Shown one piece after another: positions 1 to 4,983 of a DNA stretch of 4,983 nucleotides. Below the pieces are notes generated by a model. It was not told the origin of the DNA and ran no database searches. It saw only the letters and a program-made list of their open reading frames with translations. Each line of letters opens with the position of its first letter. Position 1 is the first letter of the stretch. Position numbers and translations under genes: made by a program. Source of the DNA: a virus (Duplodnaviria > Heunggongvirae > Uroviricota > Caudoviricetes); the IMG/VR virus record IMGVR_UViG_3300029181_000093, positions 1-4,983 of that record; one strand, given 5' to 3'.

Positions 1-157
1 CAGCCGGAATATCTGGCGGTGCAATATCGGTACTGTTTGCTGGCAGACCTGTATGAGGCGGAATATATGCGTCACCTTCACCAATAAATTCATTAGTTCC
101 GGCCAGCAGATTATAAATTTTTATGGTCCGTGGTTGTTCACTCATTCTGAATGCCAT
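1..157 (-). CDS. tfa: Tail fibre assembly protein Tfa, N-terminal 52 codons only; the 3' end lies beyond the left window edge
   Basis: Reverse-complement translation from the ATG at 155-157 gives [52 protein letters not shown], matching phage lambda Tfa N-terminus as I recall it. Its ATG overlaps the stf stop in a TAATG arrangement, as in lambda stf-tfa. It is absent from the ORF track because it is cut by the window edge. Confidence 0.9.
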
Positions 158-3100
158 TATGCAAGCCTCACAATATAGTTAAATGCGATGTTTTTGACGG
201 TGTTTTCCGCGTTACCAGCAGCGTTAACGGTGATGGTGTGTCCATGTGAACCAATCGCAACGGAGTGCGTGTGTGCACCAATACCGACAGTATGTGCGTG
301 TGCACCTGCAGATGCTGCTGTGCCGGACAGTGAGTGGCTATGGTTACCATCTGTACTGGTATTAGCTAACGCCCCCGTAGACATACCTACTGAGCCTTGT
401 ACACCCCAGGTATTTTGACCTGAGCTTGTATAACCATATTGATAAGTATCTTTAAAAACACTGGGGTTAAATCGACGGCCATCTCTATGGCTGTGATTAC
501 CAGCTGCATTCGTGCTGCCACTTAAACTATGGGTATGCGCACCAGTGTTATTCGTGGATTTAGTGCCGTAATCAAACGACGATGTGGTTTTCGTCCCCAA
601 ATCCGTACTGGATGCGCTGGCGCTGTGGGTATGCGATTTTATGCCGTCCTGTTCCTGAGACAATACGGCACGACCACTGGCGGGCTTGCCCTTAATCGTC
701 CAGCCACGCATATCAGGGATCACGCCTGACGGATAAGCGGCTGCAAGTTTCGGGTAGGCAGATTTGTCAAAAGTCTGCCCCTGCATCAGGGCATAACCAG
801 ACGGAACGGTATCTGATGGCCACGGGATTGGTGCGCCGACTGGGTAGCTTTCTGGTGGAAGATTTTTCGAGGTATAAACTTCTGCCCAGTCTTCCTCAAA
901 ACCATAACCGTCTCTTGAAGAACGGTAGAACAGACCACCATTTCTGTAATGCGCCTTCATCTGCAGGGTCCGGCAACTTCCGACTCCGGTATAGAAGTTA
1001 ACCAGAATATAGCTGTCGCCAGAGCGGGTGACATTATAAGCGCCTGATTCGGCATTCCAGGGAACGCCACCATCCGCATCGGCATATGTATCCGTTGCCC
1101 TTCTGGCAAAAGCAGCCACATGCGCGGCGGTTAAAGTAATATCTTTGGAACCATCAAACTCAACACCAGAAACCCGTCTTGGCGTTTGCAGCTTTGTTGC
1201 TGTTAATGCATTACCGTTCAGACTTGCGGACAGTTTGGTTCCAATAACCAGTTCGCCGGTTGCGTTATCAATAGCAAACGGTCTTAATGTATTCCAGCCA
1301 CCATAAACATCACCTTGATTGGTAAGCAGCAGGTAAGTTTTAGCGCCATCATTACGCCATAATGCCCCATACTCCCCACCTATCATTCGAATCTGATTAC
1401 CACCACGCGCTACAATTTCGTCTGTGGCAAAAAGTTTTTTGCACGACAAGTTATCGTTAACGATTAACGAATGAGACTCATAAAAACCACGCCCACTCTT
1501 AAAATCAAGGATAACGTCCGCCGCGATACATTCAGTCGCCGGATTTGTTGCCCCAAACTTATAGGTCGTATCATTAACAACGAGATCAGCACCAGGTGCG
1601 GATATTGACAGGCCATCTTCGATAAACGCAAAAACAGGGAAAGCAGCGCCATCAACATAGAACACAGAGCGCAAATCATCGCCCTTATTACTCATCATTA
1701 TTGAGTGGATGGCTCGTTCATTGTTTTGATATTGCCAGAACATTCCATAAGCATAACGCCCCCTGTCAGTCCAGCCACCAGGCATAACAAATCCGTTAAA
1801 CTCGCAGTTATTCATCGGATCGCCTGCGGTTCGCGTTGCCGTGGTGATAATGACCCTTGATGCCAGTTCGCTTACTGAGCCAGCAGAACGCATAACAACA
1901 ACAGGGTAATATTTTCCAGATGTTGCACCTGCAGGAGCGTTAACCCGCACATAACGCATACCACGCTTATCAGCAAAGTCTGTTTTACTGACCGCGTTAA
2001 TGTTGTTCAGGAAGCGTCCCTTATCGGGTATATCCGCACCGTTCTGGTCTTTCTGCAGACGTTTCTCAGCATTGTCATAGGCTGTTTTTACTGCCTTTGG
2101 TGTCGCGGCAAGCGTTTCAGACGTGCTGTTGGTCGCGCTGCTTAGCTGGATTATCCCTTTCTGTGCTGTCGTTGCATCCTGTGCGGTGTATTTCCCGTTA
2201 GCCAGGTCATACGCGGCCTTAACGGCTTTTGGTGTTGCCGCCAGTGACTCGGAAGTGCTGTTAGTCGCACTACTGAGCTGTACTATCCCCTTTTTCGTCG
2301 TGCTCGCATCCTCAAGCGCCACAGCGGATGCAATATCCTCTGCCCGTTTTGCTGCTGTCTCGGCGCGCGTTGCTGCGGATTCTGCCGTACTCTTGCTCTG
2401 TGCTGCCGCCGTCGCACTGCCAGCAGCCTCTGTTGCCTTCGTGGATGCCGTCGTGGCGCTGCCCTTCGCTGCTGACGCTTGTCTGGTCGCCTCATCTTTT
2501 GAAGCAGACGCCGATGAGGCCGATGACGCCGCCGAACTGGCGGACGATGCGGCAGCCGTTTTTGAGGATTCTGCGCTGGTTTCCGACGCTTTCGCGTTCG
2601 TTTCGGATGTCTTTGCTGCGGAAGCTGACCTCGCTGCTGCGCTGGCCTGTTCAGTGGCTTCGCCAGCCTTCGTTGTGGCTGTTGAAGCAGACGATGCGGC
2701 ACTTTCTGCCGACTTTCCGGCAGCGGTGGCACTGGCTGAGGCCTGCCCGGCACTTGTTGATGCGGCACTGGCAGATGATGCAGCCGCTGTTTTTGAGCCT
2801 GCCGCAGCTGAGGCACTCTGTCCCGCTGCCGTTTCAGAAGACCTGGCGTTCGTCTCGGACGTTTTTGCCGCCTTCGCGGAATTTCCTGCCGCCGTTGCCG
2901 AGGAAGCTGCGCTACTGGCGCTCGAGGATGCGTTCGTTTCTGATGATTTTGCCGCCTCTTTTGAAGCCGACGCATCCCGGGCTGAGGTGGCAGCTTCTGA
3001 CGCTTTCGTAGTCGCGGTGGATGCAGAAGTGGCTGCTGATTGTTGTGACGCTGCAGCATTCGTTTCTGACGTTTTCGCGGCACTGGCACTGGTAGCTGCC

Positions 3101-3459
3101 GCGCTTTTTGAGGACTCTGCAGCGGCAGCACTTTTTTCCGCTTCAGTGGCCTTTGTTGATGCCGTTCCTGCGCTGGAAGACGCTGACTGAGCCGACGAAG
3201 CGGCCTGTCCGGCTGACGTGCTGGCTGCGCGTGCTGAGCCTGCAGCATCAGTCGCATGGGTTGCCGCCTCACGGGCAGATGTGCCGGCATCGCCGGCTGA
3301 CTTCTTCGCGGCTGCCGTGTTCTGTGCCACCGCGGACGCGTTACGCGCCACCTCTTCCACCATCAGTTCAAAACGGCGCAGAGCCTCCGGACGGGCCTCA
3401 TCCTCCGTCATGGCACCGAGAAAATCATTCAGCGTACCGGGTCGGGAATCTTCATACAC
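157..3459 (-). CDS. stf: Side tail fibre protein Stf, long mosaic variant of 1100 aa, N-terminally truncated relative to lambda Stf
   Basis: A 3303-nt minus-strand ORF. Residues 1-40 ([13 protein letters not shown]...[12 protein letters not shown]) align with lambda Stf from about residue 79. It is followed by an Ala/Ser/Thr-rich shaft with recurring KTSETNA motifs, two tandem copies of the phage fibre repeat KGI(V/I)[11 protein letters not shown](S/T)LAATPKAVK, and a C-terminal region with [13 protein letters not shown]...[16 protein letters not shown] and clustered HxH motifs, ending [11 protein letters not shown] like lambda Stf and T4 gp37. The first codon is GTG; start choice is uncertain because the next in-frame ATG is at codon 17. 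Confidence 0.88.
2068..2292 (-). repeat. Tandem duplication (2 copies of about 132 bp, 44 aa) of the phage tail-fibre repeat motif inside stf
   Basis: Stf residues 390-433 and 434-464 are near-identical ([29 protein letters not shown] versus [29 protein letters not shown]). The corresponding DNA shows a clear direct repeat. This is coding, not CRISPR. Confidence 0.8.
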
Positions 3460-3652
3460 GGTGATGGTCCCGGCATGTGACGGCGGGAACGGGCGCTGAA
3501 TAATGCTCTTTCCGCTCTGCCATCACTTCAGCATCCGGACGTTCGCCAATTTTCGCCTCCCACGTCTCACCGAGCGTGGTGTTTACGAAGGTTTTACGTT
3601 TTCCCGTACTCGCACCGAAAATGTCAGCCAGCTGCTTTTTGTTGACTTCCAT
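3452..3652 (-). pseudogene. nu1: Chimeric terminase remnant: small terminase Nu1 codons 1-15 fused in frame to about 41 codons from the interior of large terminase gene A, terminating out of frame inside stf-homologous sequence
   Basis: The translation begins MEVNKKQLADIFGAS, the lambda Nu1 N-terminus, with lambda-like upstream sequence and RBS. From codon 16 it reads [41 protein letters not shown], which I recognise as an internal segment of lambda gpA. The last 9 codons ([10 protein letters not shown]) are stf DNA read in the wrong frame. Breakpoints are at about 3605-3608 (Nu1/A) and about 3484-3490 (A/stf). Confidence 0.75.
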
Positions 3653-3674
3653 TGTTCATTCCACGGACAAAAAC

Positions 3675-3795
3675 AGAGAAAGGAAACGACAGAGGCCAAA
3701 AAGCTCGCTTTCAGCACCTGTCGTTTCCTTTCTTTTCAGGGGGTATTTTAAATAAATACATTAAGTTACGACGAAGAAGAACGGAAACACCTTAA
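3675..3795 (-). other. cosB-like terminase binding region with three R elements (R1 3677..3688, R2 3722..3733 inverted, R3 3778..3789)
   Basis: The reverse complement is near-identical to the lambda left end between cosN and the Nu1 start. The R1 and R2 regions form a perfect 15-bp inverted repeat (gaaaggaaacgacag at 3678..3692 and ctgtcgtttcctttc at 3718..3732). R3 carries one substitution relative to lambda as I recall it. Confidence 0.8.
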
Positions 3796-3829
3796 ACCGG
3801 AAAATTTTCATAAATAGCGAAAACCCGCG

Positions 3830-3841
3830 AGGTCGCCGCCC
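3830..3841 (-). other. cosN cohesive-end site (12-nt GGGCGGCGACCT on the minus strand)
   Basis: The plus strand reads aggtcgccgccc, whose reverse complement is GGGCGGCGACCT, the lambda cohesive end. It is flanked on one side by CGCGGGTTTTCGCTATTTATGAAAATTTTCCGG (lambda left end) and on the other by lambda right-end sequence ending ...CGACAGGTTACG. Confidence 0.85.
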
Positions 3842-3892
3842 CGTAACCTGTCGGATCGCCGGAAAGGACCCGCAAAATGATAATAATTATCA
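3842..3892 (-). other. cosQ-side right-end region of cos, including a 15-bp palindrome TGATAATAATTATCA (3878..3892)
   Basis: This matches the lambda right-end terminal sequence with several substitutions. The palindrome is seen directly and has a near-identical counterpart in lambda. The exact cosQ element boundaries are not resolved here. Confidence 0.6.
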
Positions 3893-4040
3893 TCTGCATG
3901 TCACAACGTGCATCTACGCCATCAAACCACGTCAAATAATCAATTATGACGCAGGTATCATATTAATTGATCTGCATCAACTTAACGTAAAAACAACTTC
4001 AGACAATACAAATCAGCGACACTAAATACGGGACAACCTC

Positions 4041-4274
4041 ATGTCAACGAAGAACAGAACCCGCAGAACAACAATCCGCAACATCCGCTTTCCTAACCAA
4101 ATGATTGAACAAATTAACATCGCTCTTGATCAAAAAGGGTCCGGGAATTTCTCAGCCTGGGTCATTGAAGCCTGCCGCCGGAGACTGTGCTCAGAAAAAA
4201 GAGTTTCTCCTGAAGCAAACAAAGAAAAGAGTGACATTACTGAATTGCTCAGAAAACAGATCAGACCAGATTGA
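4041..4274 (+). CDS. Small basic ribbon-helix-helix (Arc/CopG-like) putative DNA-binding protein, 77 aa
   Basis: The ORF starts about 200 bp from cosN and is transcribed away from cos. The N-terminal 50 aa (MSTKNRTRRTTIRNIRFPNQMIEQINIALDQKGSGNFSAWVIEACRRRL) follow a beta-strand, helix, G-S turn, helix pattern typical of RHH folds, and match the lambda right-end ORF as I recall it. The C-terminal tail (CSEKRVSPEANKEKSDITELLRKQIRPD) differs from the lambda counterpart. No strong Shine-Dalgarno is seen. Confidence 0.65.
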   Translation: MSTKNRTRRTTIRNIRFPNQMIEQINIALDQKGSGNFSAWVIEACRRRLCSEKRVSPEANKEKSDITELLRKQIRPD

Positions 4275-4330
4275 AGCAATTTAGATAATCGTGCAGACTA
4301 CGCCCCTCATATCACATGGAAGGTACCACA

Positions 4331-4741
4331 ATGGCTCAGGTTGCCATTTTTAAACAAATATTCGATAAAGTGCGAAATAATTTAAACTATCACTGGTTTT
4401 ATTCTGAACTAAAACGTCACAATGTCTCACATTACATTTACTATTTAGCTACAGAGAATATTCATCTTGTTCTTGAAAACGATAATACGGTTTTAATAAA
4501 AGGACAGGGTAAGGTTGTAAATGTAAGATTTTCAAAAAATAAATGCCTTATAGAAGCCACCTTAAAAGGATTCAAATCAGGAGAGTTATCATTTTACGAA
4601 TACAGGAAAAATCTTGCTACAGCAGGGGTTTTCAGATGGATTACAAATATCCACGAAAACAAAAGGTATTACTATACCTTTGATAATTCATTACTCTTTA
4701 CTGAGAACATTCAGAACACTACACAAATATTTCCGCACTAA
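4331..4741 (+). CDS. ybcV: DUF1398-family protein resembling YbcV of E. coli cryptic prophage DLP12, 136 aa
   Basis: The ATG at 4331 is preceded by GGAAGG (4318..4323) at 7-nt spacing. The ORF-track start at 4316 has no RBS. The product ([18 protein letters not shown]...[31 protein letters not shown]) matches my recollection of YbcV (136 aa). The gene is strongly AT-rich compared with the neighbouring stf. Confidence 0.75.
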
Positions 4742-4893
4742 ATCATAACGTCCGGTTTCTTCCGTGCCAGAACCGGACTCGCTGGCATGATGAAATATGT
4801 GTACCCGGTAACCCCGGTGTGCATCGTTTTTGATTATTCCCGCACACTCGCGCAGAAGGAGTTCCCCGTCGGGCTACGGTCTCTGTTAATACG

Positions 4894-4983
4894 GGAACTC
4901 AGCCTGATGTTTTTCAATAAAGACATACTTCATTTCAGGCGCTTCGCGAAGTATGTCGCGGCCTTTTGGAGGATAGCCAGCTC
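4894..4983 (-). mobile_element. IS3-family insertion sequence fragment: 3' end of orfA (insE-like, 4930..4983, partial) and first 13 codons of orfB (insF-like, ATG at 4931..4933), truncated at about 4894
   Basis: The minus strand encodes ...ELAILQKAATYFAKRLK-stop, then ATGAAGTATGTCTTTATTGAAAAACATCAGGCTGAGTTC (MKYVFIEKHQAEF) in the -1 frame with the typical AAATGA overlap. I recognise this as the IS3 orfA/orfB junction. Homology stops abruptly after orfB codon 13, followed by PY-stop, so most of orfB and the far end of the IS are missing. Confidence 0.8.

What the first reader, a model, noticed from the sequence alone, without database searches (positions are those of the whole stretch)
3452..3652. 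Three-part chimeric junction cos-Nu1(1-15)-A(internal)-stf replaces the whole morphogenesis block
In lambda, Nu1 and stf are separated by roughly 19 kb of head and tail genes. Here the Nu1 start codon and first 15 codons are joined in frame to a roughly 123-bp internal piece of gene A ([41 protein letters not shown]), which then joins stf at about lambda Stf residue 68. Both junctions show short microhomology (AC/TAC at about 3605; TTCC at about 3486). A patch of A between the breakpoints implies at least two successive illegitimate recombination events rather than one deletion. The result keeps the Nu1 promoter-proximal RBS and ATG directly upstream of stf.
Basis: partly seen in the sequence, partly recalled or inferred. 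Interest (0 to 1): 0.6.

Follow-up and report, generated by a model that had tools for sequence, protein, structure and literature searches.

The report
Deletion scar in a DLP12-type prophage
The three-part join (start of terminase gene Nu1, a 123-base scrap of terminase gene A, then the side-tail-fibre gene) is real, but it is an ordinary decay scar in a defective lambda-like prophage of E. coli, not a working gene fusion.

Summary
On the minus strand, window 3841..3607 matches lambda 1..236 (cos to Nu1 codon 15). Window 3608..3486 matches lambda 1757..1879 (inside gene A, 123/123 identical). Window 3489 downward matches lambda stf from 19848 (codon 67). The joins overlap by TA and by TTCC.

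Nu1'-A' is in frame and gives a 66-aa ORF. It is out of frame with stf and stops at a TGA beside the first GTG of the 1100-aa stf' ORF.

The locus is the right arm of a DLP12-type cryptic prophage: cos is intact and a contig with the same joins continues into tfa, appY, ompT, envY and nfrA. The same sequence occurs in five independent assemblies. It is absent from 5,426 complete E. coli genomes, 50,697 phage records and 72,556 plasmids.

One complete genome (GmM062, Qin prophage) has the A/stf join alone. K-12 DLP12 and Qin carry analogous scars with other breakpoints.

Best reading: two or more microhomology-mediated deletions in a decaying prophage. This is ordinary.

One unexplained point: each of the window's four breakpoints recurs, within 3 bp, in other strains, three with different partners and the A-1879/stf-19848 pair as the same join in GmM062 (P about 5e-4 to 2e-5).

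The parts
3452..3652 (-). Chimeric 66-aa ORF: Nu1 codons 1-15, then 41 codons of gene A, then 10 out-of-frame codons read from stf DNA, then TGA.
   Evidence: ORF list. Pfam GpA_nuclease at residues 18-57 and Phage_Nu1 at 1-16. The exact protein is found on 5 contigs. It has no name and is not in NCBI.
3608..3652 (-). Nu1 start codon and first 15 codons (lambda 191-236).
   Evidence: BLAST against lambda.
3607..3608 (.). Join 1: Nu1-236 joined to A-1757, with 2-bp microhomology TA.
   Evidence: Parental and junction sequences shown side by side.
3486..3608 (-). Internal patch of terminase large-subunit gene A (lambda 1757-1879).
   Evidence: 123/123 identical to lambda and to E. coli strain 573; 4 mismatches to GmM062.
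3486..3489 (.). Join 2: A-1879 joined to stf-19848, with 4-bp microhomology TTCC (minus strand).
   Evidence: The identical join is present in GmM062.
157..3489 (-). N-terminally truncated side-tail-fibre gene stf'. The DNA starts at lambda codon 67. The open frame runs from GTG 3459 to the stop at 157 (1100 aa).
   Evidence: Pfam phage_tail_N (profile 77-134 only), Phage_fiber_2, Gp34_trimer and Collar. The first 700 nt are 99.4% identical to the full-length stf of a Qin-site prophage in H9Ecoli.
2..145 (-). 5' part of the tail-fibre assembly gene tfa. The full 194-aa gene is seen in contig L005.
   Evidence: Caudo_TAP. 95% identical to the tfa genes of Qin and DLP12-type loci.
3653..3900 (-). 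Intact lambda-type cos region. The cosN cohesive-end sequence GGGCGGCGACCT lies at 3841..3830. The cosB repeats lie between it and the Nu1 ATG. The cosQ side is upstream.
   Evidence: Alignment to lambda 48444-48502 plus 1-236: nine substitutions (five of them upstream of cosN) and a 1-nt deletion. BLAST at 94-98%.
4041..4274 (+). ylcI/ynfO-type gene (DUF3950).
   Evidence: Pfam PF13132, 74.7 bits. Annotated as such in the related loci.
4316..4741 (+). ybcV/ydfO-type gene (DUF1398).
   Evidence: Pfam PF07166, 147 bits..
4895..4983 (-). Internal fragment of IS3 (IS3 nt about 309-397: end of insE and the first 13 codons of insF). It is joined to prophage DNA at 4895-4898. This is a third illegitimate join.
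   Evidence: 89/89 identical to K-12 IS3A. The join is absent from contig L006, which has joins 1 and 2. It is also absent from all complete E. coli genomes.

Best explanation
This is a decay scar, not a device. The window is the right arm of a DLP12-type defective lambdoid prophage of E. coli.

Illegitimate, microhomology-mediated deletions removed almost all of Nu1, all of A except 123 bp, every head and tail gene, lom, and the first 66 codons of stf. That is about 19.6 kb in lambda coordinates.

The most likely history has two steps:
1. A large deletion joined A-1879 to stf-19848 through TTCC.
2. A 1.5-kb deletion then joined Nu1-236 to A-1757 through TA.

What is left is an intact cos site, a meaningless 66-aa Nu1'-A' ORF, and a 5'-truncated stf' followed by tfa.

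Shown: the anatomy, the parental origins, the microhomologies, the chromosomal location, and the presence of the sequence in several independent samples.

Inferred: the mechanism (RecA-independent slippage or end-joining at 2-4 bp homologies), the order of the steps, and the loss of function. No terminase can be made. Stf' lacks the part of its N-terminal domain that would attach it to a tail. It could be translated only by re-initiation at GTG 3459, which sits 2 nt upstream of the stop codon of the 66-aa ORF.

Plausible residual roles, inferred from the literature: a cos site that a superinfecting lambda-like phage could cut, and stf-tfa DNA available for recombination into such phages.
For: Segment mapping and junction sequences.

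Location: contig L005 has the same joins and continues into tfa, ybcY', tfaX, appY, ompT, envY, ybcH and nfrA. That stretch is 99.6% identical to K-12 581659-588218.

cos is conserved.

Candidate intermediate: GmM062 has join 2 alone.

Analogous single or multiple joins with 0-5 bp microhomology:
- K-12 DLP12 (A-1018 to tfaD) and K-12 Qin (A-719 to stf).
- About 16 other E. coli strains.

Pfam shows only fragments of Nu1 and gpA, and a truncated phage_tail_N domain in Stf'.

The same sequence is found in five assemblies.

Literature: lambda recombines with DLP12, Qin and Rac through exactly these regions, and cos breaks stimulate that recombination (PMC3945230).
Against: - No genome or contig with join 1 alone was found.
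- The only genome with join 2 alone carries it in a Qin-site prophage. Its flanks differ from the window by 3-6%, so it is not a direct ancestor.
- Join-2-alone could also be regenerated from the window form by homologous recombination with an intact phage.
- Very short retained patches recur in other strains: 115 bp of A in MIN11, and 104 bp of H plus 496 bp of J in the BE2-5 type. They look somewhat too frequent for independent random deletions.
- The window's breakpoints are reused elsewhere with other partners. A purely random two-deletion model does not predict this.
Confidence: 0.6

Rival explanations
1. One complex event. A single replication or repair accident with serial template switching copied Nu1 up to 236, jumped to A-1757, copied 123 nt, then jumped to stf-19848. 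This would be of the MMBIR/FoSTeS type, or a joining of three fragments, and would create both joins at once.
For: The retained patch is very short (123 bp), and both joins have 2-4 bp microhomology with no filler. Other strains show similar small patches between large deletions: MIN11 keeps 115 bp of A, and the BE2-5 type keeps 104 bp of H plus 496 bp of J. Join 1 was never seen without join 2.
Against: Join 2 exists alone in GmM062. Strain 573 has an independent join at the same A-1757 position. The pieces of the scar therefore also exist separately.
Confidence: 0.2
2. Assembly from pre-existing deletion alleles. Homologous recombination occurred inside A 1757-1879 between a 573-type allele (Nu1-697 joined to A-1757...) and a GmM062-type allele (...A-1879 joined to stf-19848). 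A further small deletion of Nu1 237-697 followed.
For: The A patch is exactly the overlap of the A segments kept in those two alleles. The window is 99.1% identical to strain 573 over 1291 bp left of join 1 and 100% identical in the patch, but only 90% identical to GmM062 on that side. The stf side resembles Qin-type alleles. Lambdoid prophages exchange these regions readily (PMC3945230).
Against: The predicted intermediate (Nu1-697/A-1757-1879/stf-19848) was not found in 5,426 genomes. The last deletion would have to end exactly at the older join.
Confidence: 0.12
3. A selected, working arrangement. The short Nu1'-A' ORF would serve as a leader that drives translation of the truncated Stf' by termination and re-initiation. 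Stf'-Tfa would be kept for a host benefit such as blocking phage receptors.
For: The stf' frame is open for 3.3 kb. The leader's stop TGA (3454..3452) lies 2 nt after GTG 3459. A cryptic-prophage Stf chimera has been reported to block phage T2 adsorption (PMC12529663).
Against: There are no expression data. No clear ribosome-binding site precedes the GTG. The N-terminal domain is truncated. The allele is rare: it is absent from 5,426 complete genomes. The carriers are nearly identical, so an open frame says little about selection.
Confidence: 0.06
4. Assembly or chimeric-contig artefact.
For: Repeated prophage sequences often break or mis-join assemblies. Three of the contigs end near window 3923-3931.
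Against: Five assemblies from different samples and different assemblers agree across both joins at 99.8-100% identity. Both joins lie inside unique, well-covered sequence.
Confidence: 0.01

Closest known systems
E. coli K-12 cryptic prophage DLP12, nohD-aaaD'-tfaD' region
   Same: Same chromosomal locus and same flanks: ybcV/ylcI-type genes, cos, then tfa/ybcY/tfaX/appY/ompT. The same kind of scar replaces the morphogenesis block.
   Different: K-12 keeps all of Nu1 (nohD) and A up to lambda 1018, then joins directly into tfaD, so stf is lost. The window keeps only 15 codons of Nu1 and 123 bp of A, but nearly all of stf and a whole tfa. Neither form can be derived from the other by deletion alone.
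E. coli K-12 cryptic prophage Qin, nohA-stfQ'-tfaQ-pinQ
   Same: cos and Nu1 are joined to a truncated stf, followed by tfa. ynfO/ydfO-type genes lie on the other side of cos.
   Different: Different locus (ydfJ). The join is at lambda 719 into the C-terminal third of stf. There is no A patch. A pin invertase is present.
Qin prophage of E. coli GmM062 (NZ_CM183653)
   Same: Identical A-1879/stf-19848 join with the same TTCC overlap.
   Different: Nu1 and A 1-1879 are intact upstream, so join 1 is absent. It sits at the Qin site. Its flanks are 94-97% identical to the window.
Patchwork scars in other E. coli strains
   Same: These are multi-part joins that keep 100-500 bp scraps of late genes between large deletions, with 0-5 bp microhomology. 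The BE2-5 type (at least 9 genomes) is Nu1-261/H 104 bp/J 496 bp/stf-19927. MIN11 is Nu1-583/A 115 bp/tfa. Strain 573 is Nu1-697/A-1757..2986/J/stf.
   Different: The breakpoints and retained pieces differ. None has the window's join 1.
Short-homology illegitimate recombination in E. coli (spontaneous deletions between short repeats; alternative end-joining)
   Same: Joins occur at 2-4 bp of shared sequence, with no filler and with both flanks collinear with the parent.
   Different: The genetic requirements (recA independence and so on) cannot be tested from sequence. The reuse of endpoints seen here is not a stated feature of that process.

Membership tests
Lambda-type cos site | 12-nt cohesive-end sequence GGGCGGCGACCT with its cosN flanks. 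| tested here: met
   Identical at window 3841..3830, and the cosN flanks are identical too.
Lambda-type cos site | cosB terminase-binding repeats (R3, R2, R1) between cosN and the Nu1 ATG, and the cosQ side upstream. | tested here: met
   Alignment to lambda 48444-48502 plus 1-236 shows nine substitutions, five of them upstream of cosN, and a 1-nt deletion. The R2 and R1 sequences are unchanged.
Lambda-type cos site | Cleavage and packaging by a lambda-type terminase. | not testable with these tools
   This needs a helper-phage packaging or transduction assay. The DLP12 cos region of K-12 is reported to recombine with lambda and to work in it (PMC3945230).
Terminase small subunit Nu1 (Pfam PF07471) | Complete winged-helix DNA-binding domain and the C-terminal gpA-binding part (181 aa in lambda). 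| tested here: not met
   Only codons 1-15 remain. The Pfam score is 16.9 bits against a cut-off of 30.
Terminase large subunit gpA (Pfam PF05876 / PF20454) | ATPase domain plus a complete endonuclease domain (641 aa in lambda). | tested here: not met
   Only 41 codons remain, matching positions 36-75 of the 294-position nuclease profile.
Lambda side tail fibre Stf | Complete N-terminal domain (Pfam phage_tail_N). | tested here: not met
   Only profile positions 77-134 of 134 are matched. The DNA starts at lambda codon 67 and the first start codon is at codon 76.
Lambda side tail fibre Stf | Fibre repeats and collar domain, followed by a tfa chaperone gene. | tested here: met
   Phage_fiber_2, Gp34_trimer and Collar are found. 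tfa lies at 2-145, and the full gene is seen in L005.
DLP12 cryptic prophage of E. coli | Right arm adjacent to tfaX-appY-ompT-envY-ybcH-nfrA. | tested here: met
   Contig L005, which has the same joins, is 99.6% identical to K-12 581659-588218.
DLP12 cryptic prophage of E. coli | K-12 gene content nohD (full), aaaD' and tfaD'. | tested here: not met
   The window has different breakpoints and retains stf. It is a different allele of the same prophage locus.
Microhomology-mediated deletion junction | Flanks collinear with the parent, 1-10 bp shared at the crossover, and no inserted bases. | tested here: met
   TA at join 1 and TTCC at join 2. The IS3 join has TTC plus nearby imperfect homology.
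Site-specific recombination product (Int, Pin or Xer type) | Recognisable recombinase core sites at both parental positions. | tested here: inconclusive
   Inspection of the parental sequences showed no shared site beyond TA. Direct and inverted repeats within 12 nt of the breakpoints are no longer than chance. No formal motif search against known core sites was run.

The most novel reading that the evidence does not exclude
The scar is one node in a network of reused breakpoints. Deletions in lambda-like prophage remnants of E. coli would then start and end preferentially at a small set of positions: Nu1-236, Nu1-697, A-919/921, A-1757, one site in lom, stf-19845/8 and stf-19892/5. These positions are joined to different partners in different strains and in different prophage loci.

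That would mean prophage decay is channelled by site-preferring breakage or joining rather than by random illegitimate recombination. Candidate causes:
- A nuclease that cuts related prophages, for example the free-standing GIY-YIG genes seen next to cos in some of these prophages.
- Trimming of recombination intermediates at the ends of homology between differently deleted prophages.
- An IS-linked process.
Probability: 0.35. Interest if true: 0.55.

Novelty: new member of a known kind. Interest (0 to 1): 0.22.

Why it matters
On its own it matters little. It is one more allele in the well-known decay series of DLP12/Qin-type cryptic prophages. It shows that the ancestral DLP12 carried stf-tfa, and that cos and stf-tfa outlast the packaging and morphogenesis genes.

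It is useful as a marker of a rare E. coli lineage. It was seen only in gut metagenomes and one sequencing-run assembly, not in any complete genome.

The part worth following is the reuse of breakpoints. If confirmed on a large genome set, it would give a handle on how prophages are dismantled. It would also explain why the same cos-(Nu1')-stf-tfa architecture keeps arising.

Tried and rejected
- **Exact join 1 elsewhere.** A 36-mer across join 1 gave no match in 185,579 species-representative genomes. An anchored pattern found only the known contig in JGI metagenomes. It found only the NCTC9040-type join in IMG/VR.
- **Anchored pattern for Nu1-697 in species representatives.** It gave only chance matches in unrelated MAGs.
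- **Anchored patterns for A-1757, stf-19848 and the lom site in IMG/VR.** These mostly returned wild-type allelic variants. A scan of 224 such loci for deletion joins added almost nothing, because IMG/VR holds mainly intact prophages.
- **Restriction-site explanation (CCNGG-type sites).** It fits two or three breakpoints and fails for the rest, so it was rejected (sequences).
- **Hairpin or inverted-repeat explanation.** Join 1 has GTATCC/GGATAC near its two ends. However, across 20 joins neither direct nor inverted repeats within 12 nt exceed chance, so it was rejected.
- **RNTAY motif around the 'TA' joins, and a TCCG tetramer after several left breakpoints.** By rough hand estimates (no tool call), neither was significant once the post-hoc choice was allowed for.
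- **Common descent of the Nu1-697 series.** The Nu1 haplotypes differ among carriers, so they are not one clone. The last 110 nt before the join carry no informative sites.
- **Selection for in-frame fusions.** The frames differ among strains, so it was rejected.
- **Literature.** No paper in the library describes recurrent prophage deletion breakpoints.

Full report
**1. What is in the sequence**

The feature lies on the minus strand. BLAST against lambda (NC_001416, fetched) divides window 3841..2780 into three collinear blocks:

- Window 3841..3607 = lambda 1..236 (97.9%).
- Window 3608..3486 = lambda 1757..1879 (123/123 identical).
- Window 3489..2780 = lambda 19848..20557 (86.8%).

Lambda Nu1 starts at 191, A spans 711-2636 and stf (orf-401) starts at 19650. 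The blocks are therefore the cos end plus Nu1 codons 1-15, an internal piece of A (about codons 350-390), and stf from codon 67.

Parental and junction sequences side by side show a 2-bp overlap at join 1: TA, from GCGAGTA|TCCG and GGGGATA|CGGG. They show a 4-bp overlap at join 2: TTCC, from CCCGTTCC|TGAC and GGATTCC|CGCC. There is no filler at either join.

The ORF table gives a 66-aa ORF at 3652..3452: MEVNKKQLADIFGAS / TGKRK...SAPVP / [10 protein letters not shown].

- Nu1' and A' are in frame with each other.
- The last ten codons are stf DNA read in the wrong frame.
- The 1100-aa stf' ORF (3459..157) starts at a GTG whose last base is 2 nt before that TGA.

Pfam confirms the fragments:

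- GpA_nuclease: profile positions 36-75 of 294.
- Phage_Nu1: residues 1-16, below the cut-off.
- Stf': phage_tail_N profile positions 77-134 of 134 only, plus fibre repeats, Gp34_trimer and Collar.

**2. It is real and natural**

The exact 66-aa protein is encoded on five contigs from different samples. Four are ENA gut-metagenome assemblies and one is a Logan assembly of run ERR3330176. They are 99.8-100% identical to the window through both joins. The protein and Stf' have no name and no NCBI copy.

The joins are absent from:

- 5,426 complete E. coli genomes.
- 50,697 phage records.
- 72,556 plasmids.
- One genome for each of 185,579 species.

**3. Where it sits**

Contig L005 continues past tfa into ybcY', tfaX, appY, ompT, envY, ybcH and nfrA. 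That stretch is 99.6% identical to K-12 581659-588218. This is the right arm of the DLP12 cryptic prophage.

On the other side of cos lie ylcI/ynfO-type (DUF3950) and ybcV/ydfO-type (DUF1398) genes.

cos is intact. The 12-nt cohesive end, the cosN flanks and the R2 and R1 repeats are identical to lambda. The aligned 295 nt carry nine substitutions, five of them upstream of cosN, and a 1-nt deletion.

At the right end of the window, 4895-4983 is an internal piece of IS3. It is 89/89 identical to K-12 IS3A and is joined to prophage DNA through a short homology. Contig L006 has joins 1 and 2 but not this third join, so the IS3-linked deletion is younger.

**4. Relatives and history**

K-12 carries analogous scars with other breakpoints:

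- DLP12: lambda 1..1018 joined into tfaD.
- Qin: lambda 1..719 joined into the C-terminal third of stf.

Among complete genomes, only GmM062 has join 2. There it sits in a Qin-site prophage, with Nu1 and A 1..1879 intact upstream. The flanks are 94-97% identical to the window, and the A patch differs at 4 of 123 positions.

Strain 573 has lambda 1..701 joined to 1755..2986, so its right breakpoint is the same as that of the window's join 1. The window is 99.1% identical to strain 573 over 1291 bp left of join 1 and 100% identical in the patch.

The first 700 nt of stf' are 99.4% identical to the full-length stf of a nearly complete Qin-site prophage in H9Ecoli.

The locus is therefore a mosaic of alleles that also occur at other prophage sites. 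This fits the documented exchange between lambda-like phages and DLP12, Qin and Rac (PMC3945230).

The simplest history is two deletions, join 2 first and then join 1. This is not proven, for three reasons:

- Join 1 alone was never seen.
- The GmM062 form could be regenerated from the window form by homologous recombination with an intact phage.
- The A patch equals the overlap of the A segments kept in the 573-type and GmM062-type alleles.

A single complex template-switching event also remains possible. Similar short patches occur in MIN11 (115 bp of A) and in the BE2-5 type (104 bp of H plus 496 bp of J; at least 9 genomes).

**5. How it works**

It does not work as a unit. No terminase can be made and no head or tail genes remain at the locus.

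Stf' lacks the first 66-75 residues of its N-terminal domain. It could be translated only by re-initiation at the GTG beside the stop of the 66-aa ORF. No clear ribosome-binding site precedes that GTG.

The promoter-like match upstream of cosN (3904..3877, minus strand) is only a consensus hit.

Two things plausibly still matter (inference): the intact cos, and the stf-tfa DNA as a recombination reservoir for incoming phages (PMC3945230). A report that a cryptic-prophage Stf chimera blocks T2 adsorption (PMC12529663) keeps a domesticated role formally open. Nothing here supports that role.

**6. An unexplained extra: reused breakpoints**

I mapped 20 distinct deletion joins found without anchoring the search on a breakpoint (sequences). 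Twelve of them share one endpoint, within 3 bp, with another join that has a different partner.

| Breakpoint | Joined to (strain) |
|---|---|
| Nu1-236/237 | A-1757 (window); 19574 (NCTC9040) |
| Nu1-697 | A-1757 (573); stf ATG 19653 (PEC41); stf-19794 (G4/9); lom (L725 type, 14 genomes) |
| A-919/921 | stf-19892 (2016-17-292); A-1536 (WI1) |
| A-1757 | Nu1-236 (window); Nu1-697 (573) |
| lom site | Nu1-697 (L725); A-2160 (ET490) |
| stf-19845/8 | A-1879 (window, GmM062); Nu1-705 (M37H) |
| stf-19892/5 | Nu1-551 (BR1220); A-919 (2016-17-292) |

Scans anchored on a breakpoint added three more partners:

- Nu1-697 joined to A-2487 and to another lom position.
- The C-terminus of J joined to stf-19845/8.

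Under a conservative uniform null the expectation is 3.3 joins involved and 1.8 pairs, against 12 and 12 observed (P about 5e-4 and 2e-5). With the Nu1-697 series collapsed to one event, P is about 0.009 (earlier version).

The Nu1 haplotypes of the 697 series differ, and some shared flanks are different alleles. One clone therefore cannot explain the pattern. Homologous recombination cannot swap the two halves of a join.

I found no restriction-site, hairpin, repeat or recombinase-site explanation (and inspection). Candidate causes are:

- A site-preferring nuclease. A GIY-YIG gene lies next to cos in the BE2-5-type prophage.
- Trimming of recombination intermediates at homology boundaries between differently deleted prophages.
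- An IS-linked process.

The sample is small and the strains were not weighted by phylogeny, so this is a lead, not a result.

**7. Verdict**

The thing itself is an ordinary deletion scar in a cryptic prophage: a new allele of a well-known kind and of low interest. The only aspect that could be of wider interest is the apparent reuse of deletion endpoints across strains and prophage loci.

Noticed in passing
window 3607-3608 and 3486-3489; loci L002, L004, L013, L014, L012, L017, L018, L021, L023, L262, L037, L039, L081: Deletion endpoints in lambda-like prophage remnants are reused with different partners in different strains. The positions are Nu1-236, Nu1-697, A-919/921, A-1757, a lom site, stf-19845/8 and stf-19892/5. 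Twelve of 20 unbiased join types share one end within 3 bp, against a null expectation of 3.3 (P about 5e-4). No mechanism was found.
   Followed up: partly
window 4895-4983: An internal IS3 fragment (nt about 309-397, 100% identical to K-12 IS3A) is joined to prophage DNA through a short homology. This third illegitimate join is absent from contig L006 and from all complete E. coli genomes, so it is younger than joins 1 and 2.
   Followed up: yes
L020 2819-3405 (E. coli BE2-5; the same structure in at least 9 complete genomes) and L016 3641-3754 (MIN11): Other multi-part scars keep very short scraps. One is Nu1-261/104 bp of H/496 bp of J/stf-19927. The other is Nu1-583/115 bp of A (1829-1943)/tfa. 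Short retained patches look more common than independent random deletions would give.
   Followed up: partly
window 2123-3190 (+), 2283-3290 (-), 2328-3011 (+): Long ORFs (355, 335 and 227 aa) lie in other frames, on both strands, within the Ala/Ser-rich repeat region of stf. They are almost certainly by-products of the biased, repetitive composition and not genes.
   Followed up: no
window 3607-4897 compared with L004, L003 and L002: The locus is a mosaic. The cos/ylcI/ybcV side is 99.1% identical to a prophage next to bioA in strain 573, but only 90% identical to Qin and 83-97% identical to K-12 or NCTC9040 DLP12. The stf 5' part is 99.4% identical to a Qin-site prophage in H9Ecoli. Alleles are evidently exchanged between prophage sites.
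   Followed up: partly
L039 6676-7358 (IMG/VR UViG_640753024_000006): This Nu1 gene is only 54-74% identical to lambda over its first 250 nt, but 92-100% identical over the last 250 nt before a Nu1-697/lom join. A recombination boundary therefore lies inside Nu1, close to a deletion join.
   Followed up: no
Genome-contig loci L029-L035: The 20-nt pattern built on Nu1 680-699 matched seven unrelated MAGs and genomes purely by chance, with unrelated flanks. Patterns with only 18 fully specified bases are not specific in a collection of 596 Gb.
   Followed up: yes
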